Source: a virus
Lineage: Duplodnaviria > Caudoviricetes
Length of the DNA: 41,132 nt
Reading direction: 5' to 3' (one strand)
Virus record (IMG/VR): IMGVR_UViG_3300044657_000526
Location: 1 to 41,132 of that record
The notes under the pieces are model-generated. The model ran no database searches, had not been told where the DNA came from, and worked only from the letters and a program-made list of their open reading frames with translations. A program made the translations under genes and the position numbers. Of the stretch, positions 8,863-26,956 are shown piece by piece (position 1 is the stretch's first letter; each line of letters opens with the position of its first letter).

Positions 8863-9028
8863 GCTTACCTGCTCCCCACTTAAGCTCGATGGCAAAGAAA
8901 TTACCTTTGGGAGTTGACCCAACAATATCTGGTATACCGTTACGGTTACACACTATTGTTTTAAACACCCAAAAGTTATTAGCTTTAAGCCACTTGAGTA
9001 CTTTGGCTTGTAGCTTACTCTCAGACAT
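8735..9028 (-). CDS. VRR-NUC nuclease / Holliday junction resolvase
   Basis: MSESKLQ...GIPDIV...AIELK...PSPLQ PD-(D/E)xK signature. Confidence 0.88.
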   Translation of the reverse strand: MSESKLQAKVLKWLKANNFWVFKTIVCNRNGIPDIVGSTPKGNFFAIELKWGAGKPSPLQTWNIAEIKKRGGIALVAWSLEEVQQALEKELSPSRDA

Positions 9029-9890
9029 CAGTTCTAAAACCTTTAAAGATTGGAAAGCGTGGTTTACCGTACTTAGTTATCTCTTGGTATTTGAACGTGA
9101 CTTGCTTACCAGGCAGTGAATCCTTAGTCGCCCACAAGGTGCTACGTGTTGCCAGGTCGAAGCCGGAACCAATCTTAAACTCAACCCCACGCCATTGAAC
9201 AACCAGAGCGCCAAGAATGCCGGCGCCCACCATGCCTTCTTGATGAGAAGACCTCTTAGTTTGTCCAAGTTCTCCGGTGGTTGCCTCGTTAGTGTTCGTT
9301 TCCATTTCTTCATAGCCGATTACCTCCGCTTCGTCATCTTCCCATTTCTTTAGTTTTAGTAAGTACCCTTGATTAACAGTAGAACGACCGCGCTTATATG
9401 GACCATCTAAAGCTCTTACCATCGCACCTTCATAACCTACAGAGATGCACCAGGTCCAGTACATTTCTAGTGCTTCAGCATCTTCTATTAGCACGTGCTC
9501 AACCATACGCACACGAGGAGAGTTAAGCTTCTCTACTAGGTCTTTGGTCTTTAGGTAACGCATATTAAAACCAAACTGGTCTATGTAGAAGTCATCAAAG
9601 ACATTTAGGTAGAAGTCAGGTTCACCATGCACGCTCATAATACCAGATTGTACATCGTTAAAGTCGCCTTCAACCATTAGCTCACCGTCTAGGCCGTGTT
9701 GTTGTAGCTTCATGATTTCACGTTGGATAAACAAGTTAGGTATGCGCTTCATGTTACGGCTAAATGGAATACCATCAGCTACAATACAACGTATACCATC
9801 TAGTTTAGGACTAGCTAATACAGGGTATGCTATTTTAGCTAAGTCAGGTGTTTGACTGGCAGCTAACATTGGTTTGAATAAACAGGTCAT
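9021..9890 (-). CDS. ATP-dependent DNA ligase
   Basis: KPMLA, SPKLDGIR, LDGEL, YEGAMVR, LLKLK, IGSGF, PRFPIF motifs. Confidence 0.93.
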   Translation of the reverse strand: MTCLFKPMLAASQTPDLAKIAYPVLASPKLDGIRCIVADGIPFSRNMKRIPNLFIQREIMKLQQHGLDGELMVEGDFNDVQSGIMSVHGEPDFYLNVFDDFYIDQFGFNMRYLKTKDLVEKLNSPRVRMVEHVLIEDAEALEMYWTWCISVGYEGAMVRALDGPYKRGRSTVNQGYLLKLKKWEDDEAEVIGYEEMETNTNEATTGELGQTKRSSHQEGMVGAGILGALVVQWRGVEFKIGSGFDLATRSTLWATKDSLPGKQVTFKYQEITKYGKPRFPIFKGFRTDV

Positions 9891-11074
9891 AACGTTTCCT
9901 TAAAGTAGACTGAGTCTACAAAGTTCTTTTTGTTTACAGTTACGGTCTTATATACTTGCGCAGATAGACCACCTTTAACTAATAAGTAATGCACGACTAT
10001 CGGGGTGTCGCGCTTCTTATTACACTGTCGTGCTCTACGCTGAGTGTGTCTAGCAGTAGAGAAGTCTTGACTGTAGATTATTAAATTTGCATAACCACTA
10101 AGGTCAACACCTTCAGCATAAGAAGTAGCTTGCAGTAGTAAAGCTTTCTTAAATATCACTGATAACTTAGTTAGTTCTGCTTTATAGTTGTACATAATAA
10201 CAGTGTCTTCATTGTCACCAAAGTGTTCAAGAATGTAGTCAGCTTTTTCACGGTTAGCTAATACAATATACTCATCTTCTATCTTAGCCACACCGCCTTC
10301 TAGCATGTGTAAACTTACACGCAATTTAGACTTCGTGTCACACACTAGCGTACCAGCAGTTATCTCTACTATCTCATCTTTAACAATAGTGTTGTAGACT
10401 TCTTTAGTGGCTTTACCTAACTCAATGTAGTGAATTTCATCAGTTGGTTCATGTTCAAAACCAAGTTCCGCACGAGTCTTAGTTATGAATAAGTGTTCTA
10501 CTACACCTAATATGAGCGCAGCATCACACTTATCATATTGTCGTATAGGTATGCCATTAATCTCAATTTCATACGGTTTACCATACAACCTAAACCACTG
10601 ATAAAAGTTGCCATGCTTACACCAAGGACTCCAAGAGCTTAGCGCAAACTGATGGAACAACATCTGTGGTCCTTGCGCGTTAGGCGTAGCTGAGATATAC
10701 ACTATAGGTAGTCTAACTAATAGCACCTTCAATTGCTTCCATAAGTTACCAGGCTTAGGGAAAGCACTTATATAGTTATGGCTCTCGTCTAATAAGACTA
10801 AATCAAACGTACCGGTCATTTTATGTGCCTGGTGATAATTAGTTACAACGTACTCTTTAGTGTGCTCAAAAGCCTTCAACGTTTCATGCCAGCCATCCAG
10901 GGCCTTTTTCTTAGTTATCACCAGCACTCTCTCAGCTGCAGATTTCTCTGCAACCAAGATAGCGGTAAGAGTCTTCCCTGTCCGCTCTTCCATTGCCAGG
11001 TATACTATCATGTTCTCACGTAGTATACCTAGAGCAACTTCAGACAACTCTTCCTGGTGTGGATAGGGTATCAC
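9887..11074 (-). CDS. SF2 (SNF2-like) helicase
   Basis: PYPHQ, RTGKT, LLDESH, SATP, EGVDLS, QRRAR motifs. Confidence 0.85.
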   Translation of the reverse strand: MIPYPHQEELSEVALGILRENMIVYLAMEERTGKTLTAILVAEKSAAERVLVITKKKALDGWHETLKAFEHTKEYVVTNYHQAHKMTGTFDLVLLDESHNYISAFPKPGNLWKQLKVLLVRLPIVYISATPNAQGPQMLFHQFALSSWSPWCKHGNFYQWFRLYGKPYEIEINGIPIRQYDKCDAALILGVVEHLFITKTRAELGFEHEPTDEIHYIELGKATKEVYNTIVKDEIVEITAGTLVCDTKSKLRVSLHMLEGGVAKIEDEYIVLANREKADYILEHFGDNEDTVIMYNYKAELTKLSVIFKKALLLQATSYAEGVDLSGYANLIIYSQDFSTARHTQRRARQCNKKRDTPIVVHYLLVKGGLSAQVYKTVTVNKKNFVDSVYFKETL

Positions 11075-11910
11075 TACAGCTTAGTCATAGCGATGGTTGT
11101 TGGCGCTTTAATCTTTTGCATAGTGCCCGGACACTTTCCGTAGAAGGCGCAGAACTTCTGGCTACAAAACATATAACTCGGATTCGGACGCAAGATTGTC
11201 TCAATAGGCGCAACATCTTTAACAACCAGGTCTAGCGTATCAAGAATGATATTAACTAATGCTTTAGCTTGTGGTACATTAGCTTCCATCGGGATAATCA
11301 TACCTTCAGGTACTTTCTTAAGCACTACAGATTGTATTAGATTGTGCTTAACTGCTACACCATTCTCTTCAGCTAAGTATTTATAGATAGACTGTTGAGT
11401 ACTATAGTTTGACACTGTAGGCTTGCGCTTGCCAGTCTTAATATCAGCGATAGTATTGTGGTTAATGTAATCAACTGTACCACCAATCTCTGAAACTAAC
11501 GGATGGTCTAGGTCGACTTTAAAGAACTGCTCAACACCAGTAGGTATATCAGTGTAAGGCACAATGTCCTCAATGAAAGCTTCAGTGCCCGCAATAATCT
11601 CACCTACACAAGTGCCATCAGTTTCACCATCATTAAACTGCATGTTTTCCTGCTCATTTTCTTTTTTCCAGGCTTCAACAGCTGCATCAGTCATAGCGCC
11701 AAGGTTTATTACTTTAGTACCTTTAGCTATACTTTCTTGCCACATCTGTTCAGCGCCAGCATGTATAGCAGTACCGATAGCAGCACGACTAGATGGCATA
11801 GAGCGATTGCCTTCAAGGAATGTAGACCCCCACTGCCAAGCACAACCAAAGAACCCATCAATAGCAGACGGACGTAAGCGTATTTCTTCTTGCAAAATTT
11901 GAATAGTCAT
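11074..11910 (-). CDS. PD-(D/E)xK exonuclease (Cas4/RecB-like)
   Basis: GTAIH, GTVD, IADIKT, QQSIY, 1+3 Cys pattern; start moved to ATG 11910 because of TAATG overlap with the upstream stop. Confidence 0.85.
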   Translation of the reverse strand: MTIQILQEEIRLRPSAIDGFFGCAWQWGSTFLEGNRSMPSSRAAIGTAIHAGAEQMWQESIAKGTKVINLGAMTDAAVEAWKKENEQENMQFNDGETDGTCVGEIIAGTEAFIEDIVPYTDIPTGVEQFFKVDLDHPLVSEIGGTVDYINHNTIADIKTGKRKPTVSNYSTQQSIYKYLAEENGVAVKHNLIQSVVLKKVPEGMIIPMEANVPQAKALVNIILDTLDLVVKDVAPIETILRPNPSYMFCSQKFCAFYGKCPGTMQKIKAPTTIAMTKL

Positions 11911-12632
11911 TATTTTAATCCTAGTGTGTGAAGGAACATTAAGTTGCAAAGCAAGTGTGCAGAATGAGGTAATCCCGTTTCAGGGTCCTCGTATTCACCT
12001 TGTAGCATTGCATTAGTGTGACGGTGTGCGGCTGCAAGGTATCTGCCAGTATCGGAGCACTCTTTCCAGTTACCTGGTTTATACTTACGAGCACCAAAAG
12101 TAAGTACCTTAGCTAAGGTTTCTTCAGCTACGTAGAAGTTAGCGTAATTACTTAACACAGCCCCTAGCAGCCGCCTAAAATGGTCTACTCTACCAGGTAC
12201 TGGCGTGTGGTCAGCTTGGTAATCGTACAGAGCTGTTTTTAGGCTTACTTCGTTAGGTTCTACTTCCCAGTTGAAGCCCCACATTAATAAAGCAAATGCT
12301 GGCTCTACTAAGTCAAAGCGAGGCTTGTCACCATCAAACTTCATGAATGCTTCAACTACTTTAACTTCTTGCACGTTGTGAGCTAACATTAGCTTAGCGC
12401 AGTTAGGACAAGGCTGATGGGTTACATACGCTATTAGCGGACCATCTAGCTTTGAACTATACTTAGCTTCAGCTATCAACATCTCACAAGCCATTTCTTC
12501 AGCATGTGTGTGTTCATCGTTATAACCTTCAGCTACCACTACACCATTAGCTACTAGTATGCAGCCTACTTGGCGCTTTTCTACATTTGACTTGGCAGCA
12601 ACGCCAAGCACATATTTAGTTAAGTCTTCCAC
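11910..12632 (-). CDS. Fusion: dCMP-deaminase-like domain plus DUF5664 dATP/dGTP diphosphohydrolase-like domain
   Basis: VGC..GYN..HAEE..PCPNC zinc deaminase; KFDGDKPRFDL...VLTFGARKY..NW...RH...DPETGLPHSAH; GTG 12632 preceded by GGAG. Confidence 0.85.
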   Translation of the reverse strand: MEDLTKYVLGVAAKSNVEKRQVGCILVANGVVVAEGYNDEHTHAEEMACEMLIAEAKYSSKLDGPLIAYVTHQPCPNCAKLMLAHNVQEVKVVEAFMKFDGDKPRFDLVEPAFALLMWGFNWEVEPNEVSLKTALYDYQADHTPVPGRVDHFRRLLGAVLSNYANFYVAEETLAKVLTFGARKYKPGNWKECSDTGRYLAAAHRHTNAMLQGEYEDPETGLPHSAHLLCNLMFLHTLGLK

Positions 12633-13182
12633 GAGCTTTCTCCAATAATGCATTTAATTTAGGTTCTGGTGCTACAAAGTACGCACCTTTGTTTATGTTC
12701 GCTTTCACCTCAGACGACACTTTTTCTATCGTCTTAGAGTCATTGCTATCACAAACTATAAGCATAGCTTCTTTACACTCTTTATGTGTTAAGCCAAGGC
12801 CTGTCATCTCAACTAGTGCTGATGTGATAACTAAAGCAGCTGTCATCTCAGCTGGGTAGTTTTCATCGTAATTCAGCACATCAATGTACGTGGATATATA
12901 GTAAGCCGGCCATAGTTCATTACAGTTTATTTGATTCGTTACAACTATGTGTGCTTGCTCCATAGATTCTGTTATTACTTCGTTAGTAACATCTAGCTTC
13001 CACAATACACCCATAGCAACGTAAACTAGGTCACACAGAGCATCAAGCTTGTCTACTGACGTAGTAGCTTCTAACCACTCTGTGTGCTCTTCACGCAGTA
13101 GAGACACTGCTAAGTCTTTGTGGTACTCACGAGCGTATCGCTTCTCGTTCCAGTCACTTACTCTTTTAAATACTTCATTCAT
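12616..13182 (-). CDS. MazG-like NTP pyrophosphohydrolase
   Basis: EEHTE...DALCDLVYV metal motif and SNDSK. Confidence 0.8.
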   Translation of the reverse strand: MNEVFKRVSDWNEKRYAREYHKDLAVSLLREEHTEWLEATTSVDKLDALCDLVYVAMGVLWKLDVTNEVITESMEQAHIVVTNQINCNELWPAYYISTYIDVLNYDENYPAEMTAALVITSALVEMTGLGLTHKECKEAMLIVCDSNDSKTIEKVSSEVKANINKGAYFVAPEPKLNALLEKARGRLN

Positions 13183-13988
13183 TATGCTTTCAACTTAAAA
13201 TCAATAGGGGCACAAGAGTCAAACAGGCTTAAGCACAAGTCTGACGGTTCAAATTCACAGAAGTCTTTACCGCGCGGTGCTGTCCAACGATATGTCGGTG
13301 CACGCTTAACTTCTCGGTGTTCTACAGCATACAAGTAATCATATGCTCCCTGGGTATGTTCATCATAGACATGACAGTCACCAAGGTCAAACTTGATACG
13401 ACCAGGATTCAACCCAAACTCATTAGCTATAGCAATTAACCACGCTGCAGCGAATATAATATCAGAAGGTAACCCTATCATCATATCGACACTGCGTTGA
13501 GTCCATATCATGTCTAATTGGCCCTTACGGACGTAGAATTGATACGAATAATGACAACATGGTAAACTAAGCTCTTTTAGTTTATGTGGTCTCCAGCCTG
13601 ATATAATCATCCGACGGTCGTCAGGGTTGTTAGCTAAAGCTTCTTTAAGAGCTGCAACCTGGTCGTAACCTTCAAAGTCAAACCAGGCATTGCCGTAGTC
13701 TACTTTTAGCTTGCCTTGCTCGTCACCCCAAAGCTTCCAATAGTTACAACCCCACTTTTCAAAGTCTTCAACACAAGTAGGCGTACGTACCATCGCAGCT
13801 AACTCACCTAACACACCTTTAGGGTACATCTTACGACCCTGGATGATAGGAAAGTAAGCATCGATACCGTCTACAACTAAAGACATGCCAAATAGTGACT
13901 TCGTCTTTCCATTACGGGTATTCTTAGTTATACCGTCAGCTAATATCTGTCGTATTAACTCAGCATAGTCATGTTCAAACTGGAGCAT
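13182..13988 (-). CDS. thyA: Thymidylate synthase family protein, Asp176 variant (possible dCMP methylase or hydroxymethylase)
   Basis: DRR, LPCCHYSYQFYV, QRSVDMMIGLPSD, DCHVY. Confidence 0.9.
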   Translation of the reverse strand: MLQFEHDYAELIRQILADGITKNTRNGKTKSLFGMSLVVDGIDAYFPIIQGRKMYPKGVLGELAAMVRTPTCVEDFEKWGCNYWKLWGDEQGKLKVDYGNAWFDFEGYDQVAALKEALANNPDDRRMIISGWRPHKLKELSLPCCHYSYQFYVRKGQLDMIWTQRSVDMMIGLPSDIIFAAAWLIAIANEFGLNPGRIKFDLGDCHVYDEHTQGAYDYLYAVEHREVKRAPTYRWTAPRGKDFCEFEPSDLCLSLFDSCAPIDFKLKA

Positions 13989-14549
13989 AATGCATTCCTT
14001 CTAATGTTGTTGACCAGATGTCTTCAATGTCGTCATCTTCAATGTCTCCCCAGTTAGTGCCTACTTTAACATCTACAGGCATAGGGAGGTCTTTAATTTT
14101 GTACAGCACGCTCATTTCAAACCAGGCTTTTTGCATCGCCTCAGCTTTCATTAATGCTATTGCTTGATAGTGCTCAGGCTTGTCAGGACCTTCAGTTATC
14201 AAGCTATCATGAATGAAGTTGCATAGCATAAAGTCAGTACCGTGCTCGGCGTTGTACGCTTTCATTTTAGGGTAGAAGTAATGTAGAGCTAATTTAGCTA
14301 CTTCAGCACCTGCACCCTGGTTCTCAATGTTGAGTTGGTCAGTCATCATTTTAGCCATGTACTTACGGCCTAATGGTGTGCTGCCAGGACGCTTTTGACG
14401 CCATTGGTTAATACCAACTTCTTGCCAGGCATATATCTCTTTCCAAAGATTACGCCAGCGACGTCTATCACGTACACCTTGTTCTTCAGTTAACAATACT
14501 TCAGCTTGTAATATCAGAATGCTGATAAGCATGTTAATACCACCACCAT
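13975..14549 (-). CDS. polA: Family A DNA polymerase, exon 2
   Basis: (Y)GGGINML, TPLGR, NQGAGAEVAK, motif C FIHDS, VGTNW. Confidence 0.9.
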
Positions 14550-15355
14550 CTTTATATTCGAGTGCATTCGCTACTACGCACCCCGTTCTCTTATGAACTG
14601 CTGCATGTTTCCATGCAGAATAGACTATATCATAAACTCTCACAATTTGAGCTTCCCACCGCTTCCACCTGCATTAGGTGTACTTCCTTTCGGAATAGTC
14701 GTTGAACCTTGAGCATAACGTCCAGTAGCATTATCGTGCACGCAGTGCTCCGATTGATGGCAACGCTTACAAAGCAGCTCAAAGTTTGAGTCTACGTTGT
14801 TTTCTCGATTGTGGTCTACGTGGTGTACACACCAGTCGTAGCGAGAAACGTTCCATAAGTCTTTATTACAACGGTTACAGTGTCTACGCTCTTTTAGAAT
14901 CTTACCTCTACGTTTATTGAAATATCCAATGCCTGTAGTGCGTAAATTCTCTCTTGCCCAAGCGCCTTGACTTACTTTAGTATTAACTTCTCTAAAATCT
15001 GCCACAGCTTTAGCTGCTTTTTCATGCGTTAGGTAGTAACCGCAGTCTTTTAATTCACCGTTATGTCTAACTAATGCTCTGAATCTGACGAAGTTCTTTC
15101 TACACGGTACTCGTTGAACACCTTTAGCTACCATCTTCTTGCTTCTTAGCTTGTTACACTCTTCGCAGTAGACTACTGATGGTCCTTTAGCTTCAAACTT
15201 ACTTGTACAGTGCTTGCAGTTCTTAATCATAATTATGCCCCTTGGCTGCTGATTGTCTTGTTAATTAATTATGCCAAAATTATATGTCTTTTTACGCAAT
15301 TAATTTCGTCAGAGTTCCCAGCAATTCAATGGGTTTTACTTCTGCTAGGTTATTA
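14550..15355 (-). mobile_element. Group I self-splicing intron (IA2-like, 806 nt) in polA motif B
   Basis: Exon ends in U pairing with G in P1 (UUCUGU/GCAGAA); P GAAUUGCUGGGAA, Q AAUCAGCAG, R GUUCAACGACUA, S AUGAUAUAGUCUA; terminal G at 14550; splicing restores NFSFLYGGG and a 571-aa ORF. Confidence 0.93.
14640..15230 (-). CDS. Intron-encoded HNH homing endonuclease with zinc ribbon and AP2-like domain
   Basis: CKHC..CEEC; FRALVRHNGELKDCGYYLTHEKAAKA; CNRC..HHVDHNRENN..NFELLCKRCH. Confidence 0.88.
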   Translation of the reverse strand: MIKNCKHCTSKFEAKGPSVVYCEECNKLRSKKMVAKGVQRVPCRKNFVRFRALVRHNGELKDCGYYLTHEKAAKAVADFREVNTKVSQGAWARENLRTTGIGYFNKRRGKILKERRHCNRCNKDLWNVSRYDWCVHHVDHNRENNVDSNFELLCKRCHQSEHCVHDNATGRYAQGSTTIPKGSTPNAGGSGGKLKL

Positions 15356-16496
15356 ACAGAAAACTAAAGTTATATGTCTTTGACAAGTTGCGGTCGTCTT
15401 TAGTCCAGTCGTCACCAAATAACATCTGAGCAGTAAAGCCATGTAAATCGGCACCAGAGCGGAATAGTTTTTCCATAGCTCTACACGCAGTGATTGCGCA
15501 TATAGTACGCAACTCAAGTTGAGCGTAATCCGCATAGATTAACACACGACCTGGAGGAGCTTCAAACATTGCTTTTAGTTTACGTGGCAACTGCTGAAGG
15601 TTTTGGTCTTTACTAGTTAAGCGACCAGAACGTGCGCTAGGTAAAAACTTACCGTAAATGCGACCATCTTCAGTGTCAAACTTATCTAAGAAAGAGTTTT
15701 GCTTCCGTAGTCTACGCACTTGTAGAATCTGGTGTGCTTTAGTGTTACCTTCAAGTGATAACTTAGTTAAAGCTAAAGCATCAGACTCTGTGATACCACC
15801 TAACCACTCACGCACTTGCTTATATGAGTTAGCGTTGATAGGCAAGTTAATGTCACTAATAAGCTGCTCGTTATCTTGATAGCGAAAGAATAATGCGTCT
15901 TTATTAAGAGGCATACCATTCCACTGGAAGTCAAAACAATAACCTAGTGTTAGTTTATCAAGCTGATAACTTTGGTCACTAACAAAGCTTTTAACAGCTT
16001 CCCACAACTGTGGCATGTAATAAACATCAGTTGCTGCATAAAGCAATTGGTCTTCAGTTAAAGCTAACTTAGCCCAGTCAGACTTCTGTAGAGCTTTCTT
16101 ATCCAGGTTTTGTCTAACATAAGGACAATAACCTAAGACGTATTGGAAGGTCTCATCTAAGCTAAATTTCTCTTTAGTAAAGAAGTGTAATCTAGCTAAT
16201 AAAAATGTGTCTTCATAGTTCTTAGGAACCCAACGAGTACCAGACTGTTGTTGTACTGTGGTAATATCATAGTGACTGTTATGCCACACAGTTGTGAACT
16301 TATCTAAGAATGCAGCTGTTTGTATCGCACCAGGGTGGTCTACTAATAGCACTTTATCTAAGTGTGGTTGGTAGACTTGAAGTAGTCTAATTTCCTGGTA
16401 GAACCCTTTAGTTTCAGTATCAGTAAATAAAGGTTCTTCCAGGTTCAATAGCGGCAGAGCATCTGCCAGGGTTGTTAATACGTATGGAGTCTTCAC
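15356..16496 (-). CDS. polA: Family A DNA polymerase, exon 1 (3'-5' exonuclease, motifs A and B)
   Basis: DTET, HNSHYD, YAATD exonuclease motifs; SGRLTS..NLQQLP; ADYAQLELR; RNLSKTYNFSFL. Confidence 0.92.
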
Positions 16497-22073: not shown

Positions 22074-22332
22074 GCTTATTCTCCCGTTGGTATATTGCTG
22101 CACGACTAACGCCGTATTTATTAGCTAACTCTGTCACTGTGTGACTAGTGCGCTCTGATAATAGCTTAACCCACATGTGCTCATGTAAGGTTACCTGGTT
22201 CTGCGGTGTTGCTAGCCCCGCCTCACCTGCTATCTGTGAGATGCGAGACCTGGACACTTGTGCAATGCCTGCTATCTCTTCATGTGAGTACACTTTAGAC
22301 TTAAGCATAGCAATTATAATATCTTTGTCCAC
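22063..22332 (-). CDS. Double helix-turn-helix DNA-binding protein
   Basis: SHEEIAGIAQVSRSRISQI and TVTELANKYGVSRAAIYQ; GTG 22332 with GGAGG and TAGTG coupling. Confidence 0.8.
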   Translation of the reverse strand: MDKDIIIAMLKSKVYSHEEIAGIAQVSRSRISQIAGEAGLATPQNQVTLHEHMWVKLLSERTSHTVTELANKYGVSRAAIYQRENKHVS

Positions 22333-22880
22333 TAGCTTGCCTCCATAACTAATAGTAGTATAGGTTTCCATACTTTCCACCATTCTAGTGCTTGGTTATC
22401 CATCTGTTGGATAGTGTTGTCATCAAATGAACACCATTCTTCCCAAGTGTAATGCTTACAACCTATTTGCATTACGTCTTTAGTGTATGTAACTGTGTAC
22501 GCACTAGTTTGTACAGTTTTAATCTCTTTGCCGTTACCTATACAGTCCCAAAGGTCAGCTCCACTCAGGTTAACTCTACGCAGGTCAGCATCACTCAGGT
22601 TAACTCTACGCAGGTCAGCTCCACGCAGGTAAGCATCACTCAGGTCAGCTCCACTCAGGACAGCTCCACTCAGGTCAGCATCACTCAGGTCAGCTCCACT
22701 CAGGTAAGCATCACTCAGGTCAGCTCCACGCAGGTTAACTCTACGCAGGTTAACTCTACGCAGGTCAGCTCCACGCAGGTCAGCTACACGCAGGTCAGCT
22801 CCACTCAGGTCAGCTCGTTCACCTTCAGGGTTATTTTCAAGCCATAGCTTGTGTAGTCTTAGTATTTCTTTAATATCCAT
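22332..22880 (-). CDS. Pentapeptide repeat protein
   Basis: Many A(D/N)LxG repeats between HKLWL N-terminus and MQIGCK..W C-terminal domain. Confidence 0.92.
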
Positions 22881-22908
22881 GTGCACTCCTAACGTGACAC
22901 TGTTACTT

Positions 22909-22943: not shown

Positions 22944-23417
22944 CTATGCTGCTAACAAGTCTTCAAGACTGTCGTAGCCTGTGATACCTTCAGGTAACTC
23001 AACGATTGTAACACGTTTTTCTTCAAGCTCATCGATGATGCCAGCGATGTCTTCTGGGTCAACGTCACCTGAGATAACTTGAGCAAGAATGTCTTCTTTA
23101 GCTTTCTTGAACTCACTTTGTTGCTTAGTCCAAGCGCTAACGCCAAGCTTACACATCGGGTTAAGACCTGATGCACTGCCAACTTTCTTGCCGAACTCAA
23201 CTTCATCAGTGCGGAACCACTTCTGAAAGTATGAACAACGAACAGCAACGATGTTGCCTTCTTCATCGCGGTGTGAAGTAGTAACATTGCTACCGCCTGC
23301 ACCGACACGAGCAACTGTTAGTGCTTCTACGTCTTTGTAAATTTCTTCAACTGTAGCTGACATGTTAGCAGCTAATAATGACATGATTGGTTGGAACGCC
23401 TTTTTAATAGTGGCCAT
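22944..23417 (-). CDS. Hypothetical early protein, paralogue of 25478..25900
   Basis: 157 aa, AAGGAG RBS; shared ASGLNxMCKxGVSxWTKQQ. Confidence 0.85.
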   Translation of the reverse strand: MATIKKAFQPIMSLLAANMSATVEEIYKDVEALTVARVGAGGSNVTTSHRDEEGNIVAVRCSYFQKWFRTDEVEFGKKVGSASGLNPMCKLGVSAWTKQQSEFKKAKEDILAQVISGDVDPEDIAGIIDELEEKRVTIVELPEGITGYDSLEDLLAA

Positions 23418-25477: not shown

Positions 25478-25900
25478 TTAAGCCATTGAGTGCTCTATTA
25501 TCTTAGTTCTTTCTGCTTCTATAAGAGCTTCTGCACCTGGCAGTTCTTCTATAGTAAGCTCGCCCGAACCTAACTTAGTTAGTAGTTCTTCTCTTGACTT
25601 CTTCGCTACTCGTTGTTGTTTAGTCCAGTTGCTCACACCCTCTTTACACATTGTATTGAGGCCACTTGCAGTGTTTTTCTTTGGACCATACTCAATAGTG
25701 TCTACATCTTCCCAAACTTTGTGATAATAGCAGAATACCTGGGTGACAAAACCTGCATCATCTACTTTGAAGGTTTTGTCATTAGTCTTCTTACTGCACA
25801 TAACTTTAAGTTCGTCTAATATAGTACTTACTTTCTTAGTTTTGTTTTCTTCTAAAAAAGCGATTAAGTCTACGAAGTCTTTCTTGATTGCTGTTGTCAT
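25478..25900 (-). CDS. Hypothetical early protein, paralogue of 22944..23417
   Basis: 140 aa; CYYHKVW...ASGLNTMCKEGVSNWTKQQ. Confidence 0.85.
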   Translation of the reverse strand: MTTAIKKDFVDLIAFLEENKTKKVSTILDELKVMCSKKTNDKTFKVDDAGFVTQVFCYYHKVWEDVDTIEYGPKKNTASGLNTMCKEGVSNWTKQQRVAKKSREELLTKLGSGELTIEELPGAEALIEAERTKIIEHSMA

Positions 25901-26340: not shown

Positions 26341-26633
26341 TAACTAATTGGACTATGATATACTATTTAGTTATATGAACAGAATTATTATATTATATTA
26401 GATATTGGACCAATATTGTGTTAAACAAGCCAAACGGTCAATCCTGGAGACATTTAGTTATAGGCCTATTGATAATACTCTTTATTAAATAAAGTGTCTT
26501 AAAATGACTGTGAGGAGTTCTGACTAAATTGAGACTGATTTTTTATAGCTTTTAGCTATAAGGGTGACTATCATGTATGAATTGATTTGTACAATAACTT
26601 ATTGGCATATCTTATAGCTATTAGAGTTGAGTA

Positions 26634-26752
26634 ATTGGTCTTACCTATTTACCTGGTGGGTGATTGGTCTTACCTATTTACCTTTGGGTGATTGGTCTTA
26701 CCTTTATCTACCTGGAGGGTGATTGGTCTTACCTTTATCTACCTGGAGGGTG
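26634..26752. repeat. Tandem repeat, 4 x 28-31 bp
   Basis: ATTGGTCTTACCT...ACCT..GGGTG starting at 26634, 26663, 26691, 26722. Confidence 0.92.
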
Positions 26753-26789
26753 GGCTAGGGCCAGTCCCGGGGCGGCTATTGTCTCAGGA

Positions 26790-26956
26790 AATTGGTGGTT
26801 TACTTGTGTACTAAAGTATACCGTATTAAATTTATATAAATGCACTACGAGTAATTGGTGGTTTACTTGTGTATAAAAGTATACCGTATTAAATTTATAT
26901 AAATGCACTACGAGTACGTATTAAATTTATATAAACGCACTACGAGTACGTATTAA
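26790..26956. repeat. Nested tandem repeat: 2 x 63 bp plus an extra 32-bp sub-unit and a partial unit
   Basis: 26790-26852 is nearly identical to 26853-26915; CGTATTAAATTTATATAAAyGCACTACGAGTA occurs three times. Confidence 0.92.

What the first reader, a model, noticed from the sequence alone, without database searches (positions are those of the whole stretch)
13182..13988. Thymidylate synthase homologue with the dCMP-specifying Asp: candidate cytosine-modification or alternative dTMP pathway
Seen: the motif reads QRSVDMMIGLPSD; Asp176 (codon at 13461-13463) lies 31 residues after catalytic Cys145, the same spacing as E. coli ThyA Cys146 and Asn177. Established: this residue sets base specificity. 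T4 dCMP hydroxymethylase has Asp179 there, and Asn-to-Asp mutants of ThyA methylate dCMP. The rest of the protein looks ThyA-like rather than T4 gp42-like. Inference: the enzyme makes 5-methyl- or 5-hydroxymethyl-dCMP. Either the genome carries modified C, or the neighbouring deaminase converts 5-methyl-dCMP to dTMP, a methylate-then-deaminate route that avoids dUMP. I see no dNMP kinase or glycosyltransferase, which favours the second model or use of host kinases.
Basis: partly seen in the sequence, partly recalled or inferred. Interest (0 to 1): 0.85.

Follow-up and report, generated by a model that had tools for sequence, protein, structure and literature searches.

The report
Podophage dCMP methylase, 5-methylcytosine cassette
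This complete 41-kb phage genome carries a thymidylate-synthase gene with the aspartate that likely makes it methylate cytosine nucleotides, so the phage likely builds its DNA with 5-methylcytosine by a recipe already described for phage Xp12; the one fresh lead is a small neighbouring domain that swaps places with a nucleotide kinase in relatives and may be the pathway's missing kinase.

Summary
Observation confirmed. ORF 13182-13988(-) is a ThyA-fold protein with Asp176 at E. coli Asn177. It keeps the Leu143 and Asp169 equivalents, the published signature of a dCMP methylase rather than a hydroxymethylase or hydroxylase. The Asp is clade-wide: 120 of 120 homologues, 81 of 82 viral loci. The window is a complete Kafunavirus/PH1-like podophage genome with a polymerase, TS, PRA-PH and deaminase block. 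The 'no kinase' argument fails, because Xp12 has no recognisable kinase either, and VPMS1 keeps the Asp enzyme without a deaminase. The scan found this system before on other genomes. No activity or modified base is shown for this clade, which keeps His147 and Gln165, unlike Xp12. New lead: relatives carry exactly one of DUF5664, DUF6378, Nmad1 or a P-loop dNMP kinase (43 of 43; held-out 19 of 19). The window's deaminase-fused DUF5664 may therefore be the missing 5-methyl-dCMP kinase, although one DUF5664 was measured as a slow dNTP hydrolase.

The parts
13182..13988 (-). Asp177-type thymidylate synthase homologue, predicted dCMP C5-methyltransferase (268 aa)
   Evidence: PF00303 E 3e-54; residue table; model and fold match
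13461..13463 (-). Asp176 codon (equivalent of E. coli Asn177), base-specificity residue
13551..13565 (-). Leu142-Pro-Cys-Cys145-His146: catalytic Cys, the Leu143 equivalent (methyl signature) and the retained His147 equivalent
13485..13487 (-). Asp168 (equivalent of Asp169); not the Asn of 5-hydroxy-dCMP synthases
12616..13182 (-). PRA-PH / MazG-like nucleotide pyrophosphohydrolase, inferred dCTPase; substrate untested
   Evidence: PF01503 E 1e-6; weak match to the N-terminal half of the Xp12 hydrolase, E 3e-6; PRA-PH or MazG in 39 of 43 well-flanked relatives
12339..12653 (-). Zn-dependent cytidine deaminase domain (HAE and CPNC motifs) of the 247-aa fusion 11910-12653; inferred 5mdCTP-to-dTTP deaminase
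   Evidence: PF00383 E 1e-13 and PF14437; closest solved relative a dCMP deaminase, 4p9c, E 2e-7
11922..12128 (-). DUF5664 / dGTP_diPhyd_N domain fused behind the deaminase (its N-terminal motif lies about 55 aa upstream of an insertion); candidate 5-methyl-dCMP kinase, or a dNTP hydrolase
   Evidence: PF18909 E 2e-24, aa 176-244; mutual exclusion with a dNMP kinase; hydrolase data
15357..16496 (-). PolA-family DNA polymerase, N-terminal part (exonuclease to motif B)
   Evidence: matches PH1 polymerase aa 10-379, 63%
13975..14549 (-). PolA-family DNA polymerase, C-terminal part, overlapping the TS start
   Evidence: PH1 polymerase aa 381-570, 74%
9021..11949 (-). Downstream PD-(D/E)XK nuclease, SNF2/ResIII helicase and ATP-dependent ligase; same domain set as enriched in cytosine-modified contigs

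Best explanation
The gene encodes a ThyA-fold enzyme that likely methylates dCMP to 5-methyl-dCMP, and the phage likely replaces cytosine with 5-methylcytosine in its DNA while likely making dTTP from the same pool with its deaminase. Shown: fold, catalytic residues, Asp177/Leu143/Asp169 signature, gene order and conservation. Inferred: (1) the PRA-PH protein hydrolyses dCTP to dCMP, which starves replication of plain C and feeds the methylase; (2) the TS homologue transfers a methyl from methylene-THF, with host DHFR recycling the folate since the phage has none; (3) 5-methyl-dCMP is phosphorylated by a host kinase or by the DUF5664 domain; (4) the phage PolA incorporates 5mdCTP, which would block most C-containing type II restriction sites; (5) the deaminase converts part of the 5mdCTP to dTTP.
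For: Signature residues match the published methylase rule (PMC13326640) in the window, in 120 of 120 homologues, and in 82 of 82 loci for Leu143 and Asp169. Five of seven Asp-type, deaminase-linked phage TS homologues made 5mdC in vivo, and Xp12 labelling data support dTTP from 5mdCTP. The seven Pfam families most enriched in experimentally selected C-modified contigs (TS, dCMP_cyt_deam_1, MafB19-deam, two ligase domains, PRA-PH, DNA_pol_A) all occur in window 9021-16496. The five domains listed around deaminases in that screen are this block. Xp12 and PaMx74 have TS, PRA-PH and deaminase adjacent. Xp12 DNA is 100% 5mC and resists about 90% of type II enzymes. The Asp enzyme persists without a deaminase in 8 of 42 well-flanked Asp loci and in complete genomes, which a thymidine-only role does not predict. 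The single Asn member (L076) nests inside the clade, lacks a deaminase in the DNA held and has DHFR.
Against: No activity or base analysis is in hand for this protein or any named member of its clade. It is only 27-28% identical to the Xp12 and PaMx74 enzymes and falls on a separate branch. It keeps His147 and Gln165, where Xp12 has Pro and Leu and T4 gp42 has Thr and Met; position 147 was the second most discriminating position between modified and unmodified contigs. Two of seven tested Asp enzymes gave no 5mdC. Whether the tested enzymes belong to this clade could not be seen. The window's deaminase has no detectable match to the Xp12 deaminase at E 0.01, though the KF-1 and Amaethon ones match weakly, and 22 of 56 active screened deaminases were not 5mC-selective. 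Deaminase plus pyrophosphatase plus TS is also the gene set of an ordinary dTMP pathway.
Confidence: 0.72

Rival explanations
1. Thymidine-only detour: the enzyme makes 5-methyl-dCMP, all of it is deaminated to dTMP or dTTP, and the DNA keeps ordinary C.
For: Deaminase within the DNA held in 34 of 43 well-flanked relatives; no P-loop kinase in the genome. A host dCTP deaminase could stand in where the phage gene is missing (recalled: enterobacterial Dcd accepts 5-methyl-dCTP).
Against: Complete genomes lack the deaminase but keep the Asp enzyme and PRA-PH. Xp12 and PaMx74 also lack a recognisable kinase. The domain set is the one enriched in C-modified DNA. The purified deaminase mSCD-B5 needs the triphosphate, so 5mdCTP would be in the pool.
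Confidence: 0.1
2. Ordinary thymidylate synthase despite the Asp: with His147 and Gln165 kept, it still methylates dUMP supplied by the deaminase and a dUTPase-type PRA-PH protein.
For: His147, Gln165, Trp80, Trp83, Tyr94 and Glu58 are all as in ThyA. VPMS1's PRA-PH is annotated DR2231-like, a dUTPase family (recalled). It is the only TS in the genome.
Against: Asn-to-Asp switches ThyA to dCMP, as cited. The Asp is held in 81 of 82 and 79 of 80 loci together with a fixed Phe176-to-Ser/Ala change. No natural Asp-type dUMP methylase turned up in the papers read.
Confidence: 0.08
3. The product is another C5 modification (5-hydroxymethyl-dCMP), or 5mC replaces C only in part.
For: The methyl versus hydroxymethyl rule rests on one residue described as a correlation. 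PRA-PH or MazG is missing from 4 of 43 well-flanked relatives, so dCTP exclusion may be incomplete.
Against: Leu143 in 120 of 120 and 82 of 82, Trp80 invariant, Trp83 in 120 of 120 and 79 of 82. No glycosyl- or carbamoyltransferase in the window or among the neighbour clusters scanned.
Confidence: 0.1

Closest known systems
Xanthomonas phage Xp12 (MT664984) and Pseudomonas phage PaMx74 (JQ067093) 5-methylcytosine module
   Same: Asp177-type TS with Asp169 kept, adjacent PRA-PH hydrolase and PF00383 deaminase, no recognisable dNMP kinase, and one small helical slot domain (Nmad1 fused to their PRA-PH protein, E 2e-20 and 4e-18).
   Different: TS only 27-28% identical and on a separate branch; Pro147/Leu165 in Xp12 against His/Gln here; Xp12 has DHFR in the module; unrelated virus (2 of 40 window ORFs match); the window's deaminase is divergent and fused to DUF5664.
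MetaGPA deaminase-linked Asp-type TS cassettes and mSCD-B5 (bioRxiv 10.1101/2024.12.05.627091; eLife PMC8670742)
   Same: Same neighbourhood (TS, PRA-PH, PolA with exonuclease, deaminase, ligase) and the same selection rule (Asp at 177 plus PF00383 in an IMG/VR contig); methylate-then-deaminate route proposed and partly tested.
   Different: The preprint's main text does not mention Edwardsiella, Pseudoalteromonas, Vibrio, KF-1 or any DUF; mSCD-B5 is a single 154-aa domain; its supplements could not be seen.
Kafunavirus KF-1/IW-1, Pseudoalteromonas phage PH1, Vibrio phage VPMS1, Dickeya phage Amaethon
   Same: Same virus group (26-31 of 40 window ORFs shared), same PolA-TS-PRA-PH order, TS 52-55% identical with the same Asp.
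   Different: VPMS1 has no deaminase and has DUF6378 in place of DUF5664; no base modification is reported in the KF-1 announcement or the review passages read; none has the polymerase insertion.
T4 gp42 dCMP hydroxymethylase; RB69/DLP3 5-hydroxy-dCMP synthases
   Same: TS superfamily with Asp at the 177 position.
   Different: They carry an acidic residue at 143 and, for the hydroxylases, Asn at 169; the window has Leu and Asp, and no sugar transferases.

Membership tests
Thymidylate synthase superfamily (PF00303) | Fold and catalytic set (Cys146, Arg21/126/127/166, Glu58, Tyr94, Asp169, His207, Tyr209 equivalents) | tested here: met
Canonical dUMP-methylating ThyA | Asn at position 177 | tested here: not met
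   Asp176
Xp12-type dCMP C5-methyltransferase | Asp at 177 | tested here: met
Xp12-type dCMP C5-methyltransferase | Hydrophobic residue at 143 and Asp at 169 (methyl product) | tested here: met
   Leu142 and Asp168; rule; counts
Xp12-type dCMP C5-methyltransferase | Linked PRA-PH hydrolase and PF00383 deaminase | tested here: met
Xp12-type dCMP C5-methyltransferase | Same sequence clade as the Xp12/PaMx74 enzymes, with His147 replaced | tested here: not met
   27-28% identity, His kept, separate branch in a quick tree with a long-branch warning; it works like Xp12's enzyme but is not filed as its orthologue
Xp12-type dCMP C5-methyltransferase | Measured dCMP methylation and 5mC in virion DNA | not testable with these tools
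   needs enzyme assay or LC-MS
T4-type dCMP hydroxymethylase | Acidic residue at 143 and downstream sugar transferases | tested here: not met
5-hydroxy-dCMP synthase (RB69/DLP3/RL38JI) | Asn at 169 | tested here: not met
5mC-selective deaminase (mSCD), for 11910-12653 | PF00383 domain in cis with an Asp-type TS | tested here: met
5mC-selective deaminase (mSCD), for 11910-12653 | Measured preference for 5mC; the trait is polyphyletic with no published motif | not testable with these tools
T7 gp1.7 / DUF3310-type nucleotide kinase, for the DUF5664 domain | Sequence or fold homology to gp1.7 | tested here: inconclusive
   no profile match with shallow alignments; the 50 viral fold hits shown, where named, were DUF5664 proteins or one mislabelled row

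The most novel reading that the evidence does not exclude
DUF5664, DUF6378 and Nmad1 (DUF1599) are interchangeable non-P-loop nucleotide kinases or phosphotransferases, and in 5mC phages they are the long-missing 5-methyl-dCMP kinase: the window's deaminase-DUF5664 fusion would both phosphorylate 5-methyl-dCMP and split the product between 5mdCTP and dTTP, and the Nmad1 half of Xp12's PRA-PH protein would be the phage-induced kinase reported in 1982. The Kafunavirus/PH1 podophages would be a second, His147-retaining lineage of 5mC phages.
Probability: 0.3. Interest if true: 0.7.

Novelty: new member of a known kind. Interest (0 to 1): 0.36.

Why it matters
If right, a widespread group of marine, freshwater and aquaculture podophages (KF-1, PH1, VPMS1, Amaethon and many uncultured relatives), now annotated as having an ordinary thymidylate synthase, has 5-methylcytosine DNA. 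That predicts resistance to most type II restriction enzymes and sensitivity to methylation-dependent ones. Cultured members make this a quick LC-MS test. The pathway is known, so the base finding is modest. The slot pattern matters more: it gives a testable function for three widespread phage domains of poorly known role and a candidate gene for the Xp12 kinase. The deaminase is also a candidate 5mC-selective enzyme of the kind used for methylome sequencing.

Tried and rejected
Direct evidence of modification: the run search listed 19 DNA holders kept as contigs and no RNA holder; contigs cannot show base modification, so no reads were laid. Linking the clade to MetaGPA modified contigs: five clade motifs found nothing in the eLife supplements as held, but the source-data archive is cut and the preprint's supplements are closed, so this is open. 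Literature on the isolates: searches gave no restriction or base analysis for KF-1, ETP-1, IW-1, PH1, VPMS1 or Amaethon; the primary VPMS1, PH1, ETP-1 and Amaethon papers were not read. Restriction-site avoidance: only uncontrolled counts exist (GATC 0.03 and GGTACC 0.29 of expectation; DpnII, MboI and KpnI cut Xp12 DNA). Several 5mC-blocked sites are low too (CCTAGG, CTCGAG) and TCGA, which is cut, is not, so this is not used as evidence; a controlled comparison was not carried out and stays open. A second TS in MW202744 (annotated DHFR-TS) is not TS-like. Pfam DNMK is a weak test, since true slot kinases score below its cut-off; phrog_139 with a positive control was used instead, and its weak VPMS1 hit lies in the primase. 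Homology among the slot domains or to T7 gp1.7 was not detected; the ESM Atlas returned only their own families. The DUF5664 model's best solved match was 2p06 at Z 6.9, rmsd 4.2 over 81 residues, with MazG-like entries at Z 4.0-4.3; this is too weak for a helical bundle and, if anything, leans to a hydrolase. Independent origin of the Asp was not tested properly: the tree was the quick one, with one canonical ThyA. The PRA-PH protein has no solved relative by sequence, so dCTPase versus dUTPase is unresolved. Rfam found nothing in the window. No complex prediction was run.

Full report
Observation. The ORF, motif and coordinates are as stated: 268 aa, Cys145 at 13554-13556, Asp176 (GAT) at 13461-13463. 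Alignments to solved ThyA proteins and to E. coli ThyA place this Asp on Asn177. The AlphaFold model from a 119-sequence alignment has mean pLDDT 96.4 and matches ThyA structures at TM about 0.9. All catalytic and phosphate-binding residues checked are present.

Genome. The window is a complete virus record with direct terminal repeats. It is a podophage related to PH1, KF-1, VPMS1, Amaethon and two Manatee Spring genomes: 25-31 of 40 window ORFs match each, against 2 of 40 for Xp12. The minus-strand block reads PolA (in two pieces), TS, PRA-PH hydrolase (12616-13182), deaminase fused to DUF5664 (11910-12653), PD-(D/E)XK nuclease, SNF2 helicase, ligase. The TS is the only one in the genome. 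No DHFR, glycosyltransferase or carbamoyltransferase appeared among 43 ORFs scanned, and no dNMP kinase in a six-frame search.

Conservation. The best 120 of 811 homologues all have Asp177, His147, Gln165, Trp80, Trp83, Tyr94, Glu58, Leu143 and Asp169; Phe176 is Ser (111) or Ala (9). Of 82 IMG/VR loci (the second kept the best 80 of 192, and three loci appear by length to be copies of KF-1, PH1 and VPMS1) 81 have Asp and one, L076, has Asn. Of 80 metagenome loci (best 80 of 346) 79 have Asp and one was unreadable. In a quick IQ-TREE run on 82 rows the clade (SH-aLRT 95) is separate from Xp12 and PaMx74 (100), and L076 nests inside it; the tool warned of long branches and only one canonical ThyA was included.

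What the residues predict. PMC13326640 (passages) gives three rules: Asp at 177 selects dCMP, Leu at 143 goes with methyl while Asp or Glu goes with hydroxymethyl, and Asn at 169 marks 5-hydroxy-dCMP synthases. The window reads Asp, Leu, Asp, which predicts 5-methyl-dCMP. The caveat is His147: PMC8670742 (section 11) ranks 147 second for separating modified from unmodified contigs, and Xp12, PaMx74 and T4 gp42 have replaced it while this clade has not.

What is in print. bioRxiv 10.1101/2024.12.05.627091 (parts 1-3 of 11, sections 20 and 43, passages; supplements closed) reports that 104 of 149 deaminases on C-modified contigs lie beside a TS. Five of seven such Asp-type TS made 5mdC in E. coli with T4 kinase. 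mSCD-B5 deaminates 5mdCTP but not 5mdCMP. The authors propose that 5mC phages make dTTP this way. PMC8670742 supplement 2 (part 1 of 36) lists the families most enriched in C-modified DNA; the first seven are all in window 9021-16496, and DUF5664, PDDEXK_1 and SNF2_N are also enriched. Xp12 DNA is 100% 5mC (PMC7653180, part 2 of 5). Earlier notes of this scan reached the same reading on other genomes; my reading was recorded before I saw them.

Modified genome or thymidine only? Among 43 IMG/VR loci with at least 4 kb on both sides, 34 have a deaminase, 39 a PRA-PH or MazG, 4 a dNMP kinase and 1 DHFR. Eight of the 42 Asp loci have no deaminase in the DNA held. Whole-record searches confirm its absence in VPMS1 and Kolga (2 of 5 records, the other three positive) and in 5 of 5 IMG records, only one of which is complete. 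Xp12 and PaMx74 have no DNMK or phrog_139 kinase, while the control L063 is found. Both arguments for a thymidine-only route thus weaken. A host dCTP deaminase could still cover the gap (recalled), so that rival keeps 0.10.

The slot. Beside the TS there is always one of four things: DUF5664, DUF6378, Nmad1 (DUF1599) or a P-loop protein matching the dNMP kinase family phrog_139 (E 3e-10 to 6e-8). Exactly one is present in 43 of 43 well-flanked loci (24, 12, 3, 4) and in 79 of all 82; the other three are truncated and none has two. After collapsing at 90% TS identity it is 53 of 53, against a permutation mean of 26.3 (0 of 20,000 shuffles; these ignore relatedness). With profiles built on the IMG loci only, the held-out metagenome loci gave 19 of 19 after keeping the 43 of 80 under 90% identical to any IMG TS, the 22 of those with at least 1.8 kb downstream, and collapsing near-copies (14 DUF5664, 4 kinase, 1 DUF6378). 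Of all 80, 62 had one, 18 had none and 0 had two. All 9 reference records have exactly one; in Xp12 and PaMx74 (first 50 kb searched) it is an Nmad1 domain fused to PRA-PH. The domain sits upstream of the TS in some loci and downstream or fused in others, so this is not just one physical slot. The simplest inference is a shared, needed function, and the only member with a clear one is a kinase. Precedents: T7 gp1.7, a DUF3310 protein, is a small non-P-loop nucleotide kinase (PMC10700055 passages), and a phage-induced 5-methyl-dCMP kinase was reported in 1982 (reference title only, in PMC10742078; that the phage was Xp12 is recalled).

Against the kinase idea. DUF5664 of phage Wayne hydrolyses dATP, dUTP and dGTP to dNMP, slowly (kcat 0.48, 0.22 and 0.053 per second); the word kinase does not occur in that paper (PMC12884076, outline and passages). 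No homology was found among the three domains or to gp1.7. The fold search leans weakly to MazG-like bundles. The Asn-type locus L076 also has DUF6378, and DUF5664 occurs in many phages outside this clade, so the role is not specific to 5mC. One paper search for these domain names (40 of 59 listed, three papers opened across and earlier) and one search of earlier notes showed no statement of this pattern; that is a narrow check. I put it at 0.3.

Other papers seen: PMC9206674, PMC8472413 and PMC5175136 (passages) and PMC3569283 (whole text); none reports the base content of this clade. PMC7653180 supplement 2 was read in parts 1-2 of 3.

Verdict. A real feature and a new member of a known kind: a predicted dCMP methylase in an Xp12-like cassette, from a lineage not shown to have been tested. 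Confidence in 5mC DNA with deaminase-derived dTTP is 0.72. Interest 0.36, carried largely by the cultured relatives that make it testable and by the slot pattern.

Noticed in passing
window 14550-15355 (-), HNH ORF 14640-15230: The PolA gene is split inside motif B by an insertion of about 806 nt with an HNH endonuclease ORF; by eye it has group I intron elements and a U/G splice pattern. PH1 polymerase aa 10-379 and 381-570 match either side. Rfam found nothing at gathering score.
   Followed up: partly
L014:46207-46980 (Xp12 QNN97215), L015:41389-42126 (PaMx74_53): The Xp12 'HAD hydrolase' is a PRA-PH domain fused to an unannotated Nmad1-like domain.
   Followed up: partly
L076:8301-9128 and 11661-12206: The only Asn177 member of the clade, nested among Asp members, with DHFR nearby and no deaminase in a 21-kb fragment; a likely natural reversion to dUMP and a good control.
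   Followed up: partly
window 1-41132: GATC is nearly absent (3 sites, 0.03 of expectation); GATATC, CCTAGG, CTCGAG, GGTACC and GAATTC are also low. Uncontrolled.
   Followed up: partly
window 22944-23417 and 25478-25900 (-): Two paralogous unknown genes (phrog_10459) conserved at 42-52% in all six related podophage genomes.
   Followed up: no
L007-L009, L022, L023: Relatives carry a different deaminase, 34-41% identical to Xp12's, in the same cassette, so the deaminase has been swapped within the group.
   Followed up: partly
L024 (Pelagibacter phage Kolga) 29043-30697; L073-L087: An unrelated SAR11 siphophage and similar marine contigs carry the same Asp-type TS with Nmad1 and PRA-PH; Kolga has no deaminase, so it may also have 5mC DNA.
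   Followed up: partly
L053:9092-10795: The TS is in one frame with an upstream 5'-3' exonuclease (567 aa), a possible fusion.
   Followed up: no
L044, L053, L057, L059, L067, L077, L097, L098, L010 (cluster c21): A small unnamed gene follows the TS in 9 of 82 loci, some of its text resembling a degenerate DHFR start; no Pfam or PHROG match.
   Followed up: no
window 22332-22886 (-): Pentapeptide-repeat protein in the early region.
   Followed up: no
window 26600-26910: Non-coding stretch with short repeated units before the terminase, seen only in spurious ORF translations; possible origin or packaging region.
   Followed up: no
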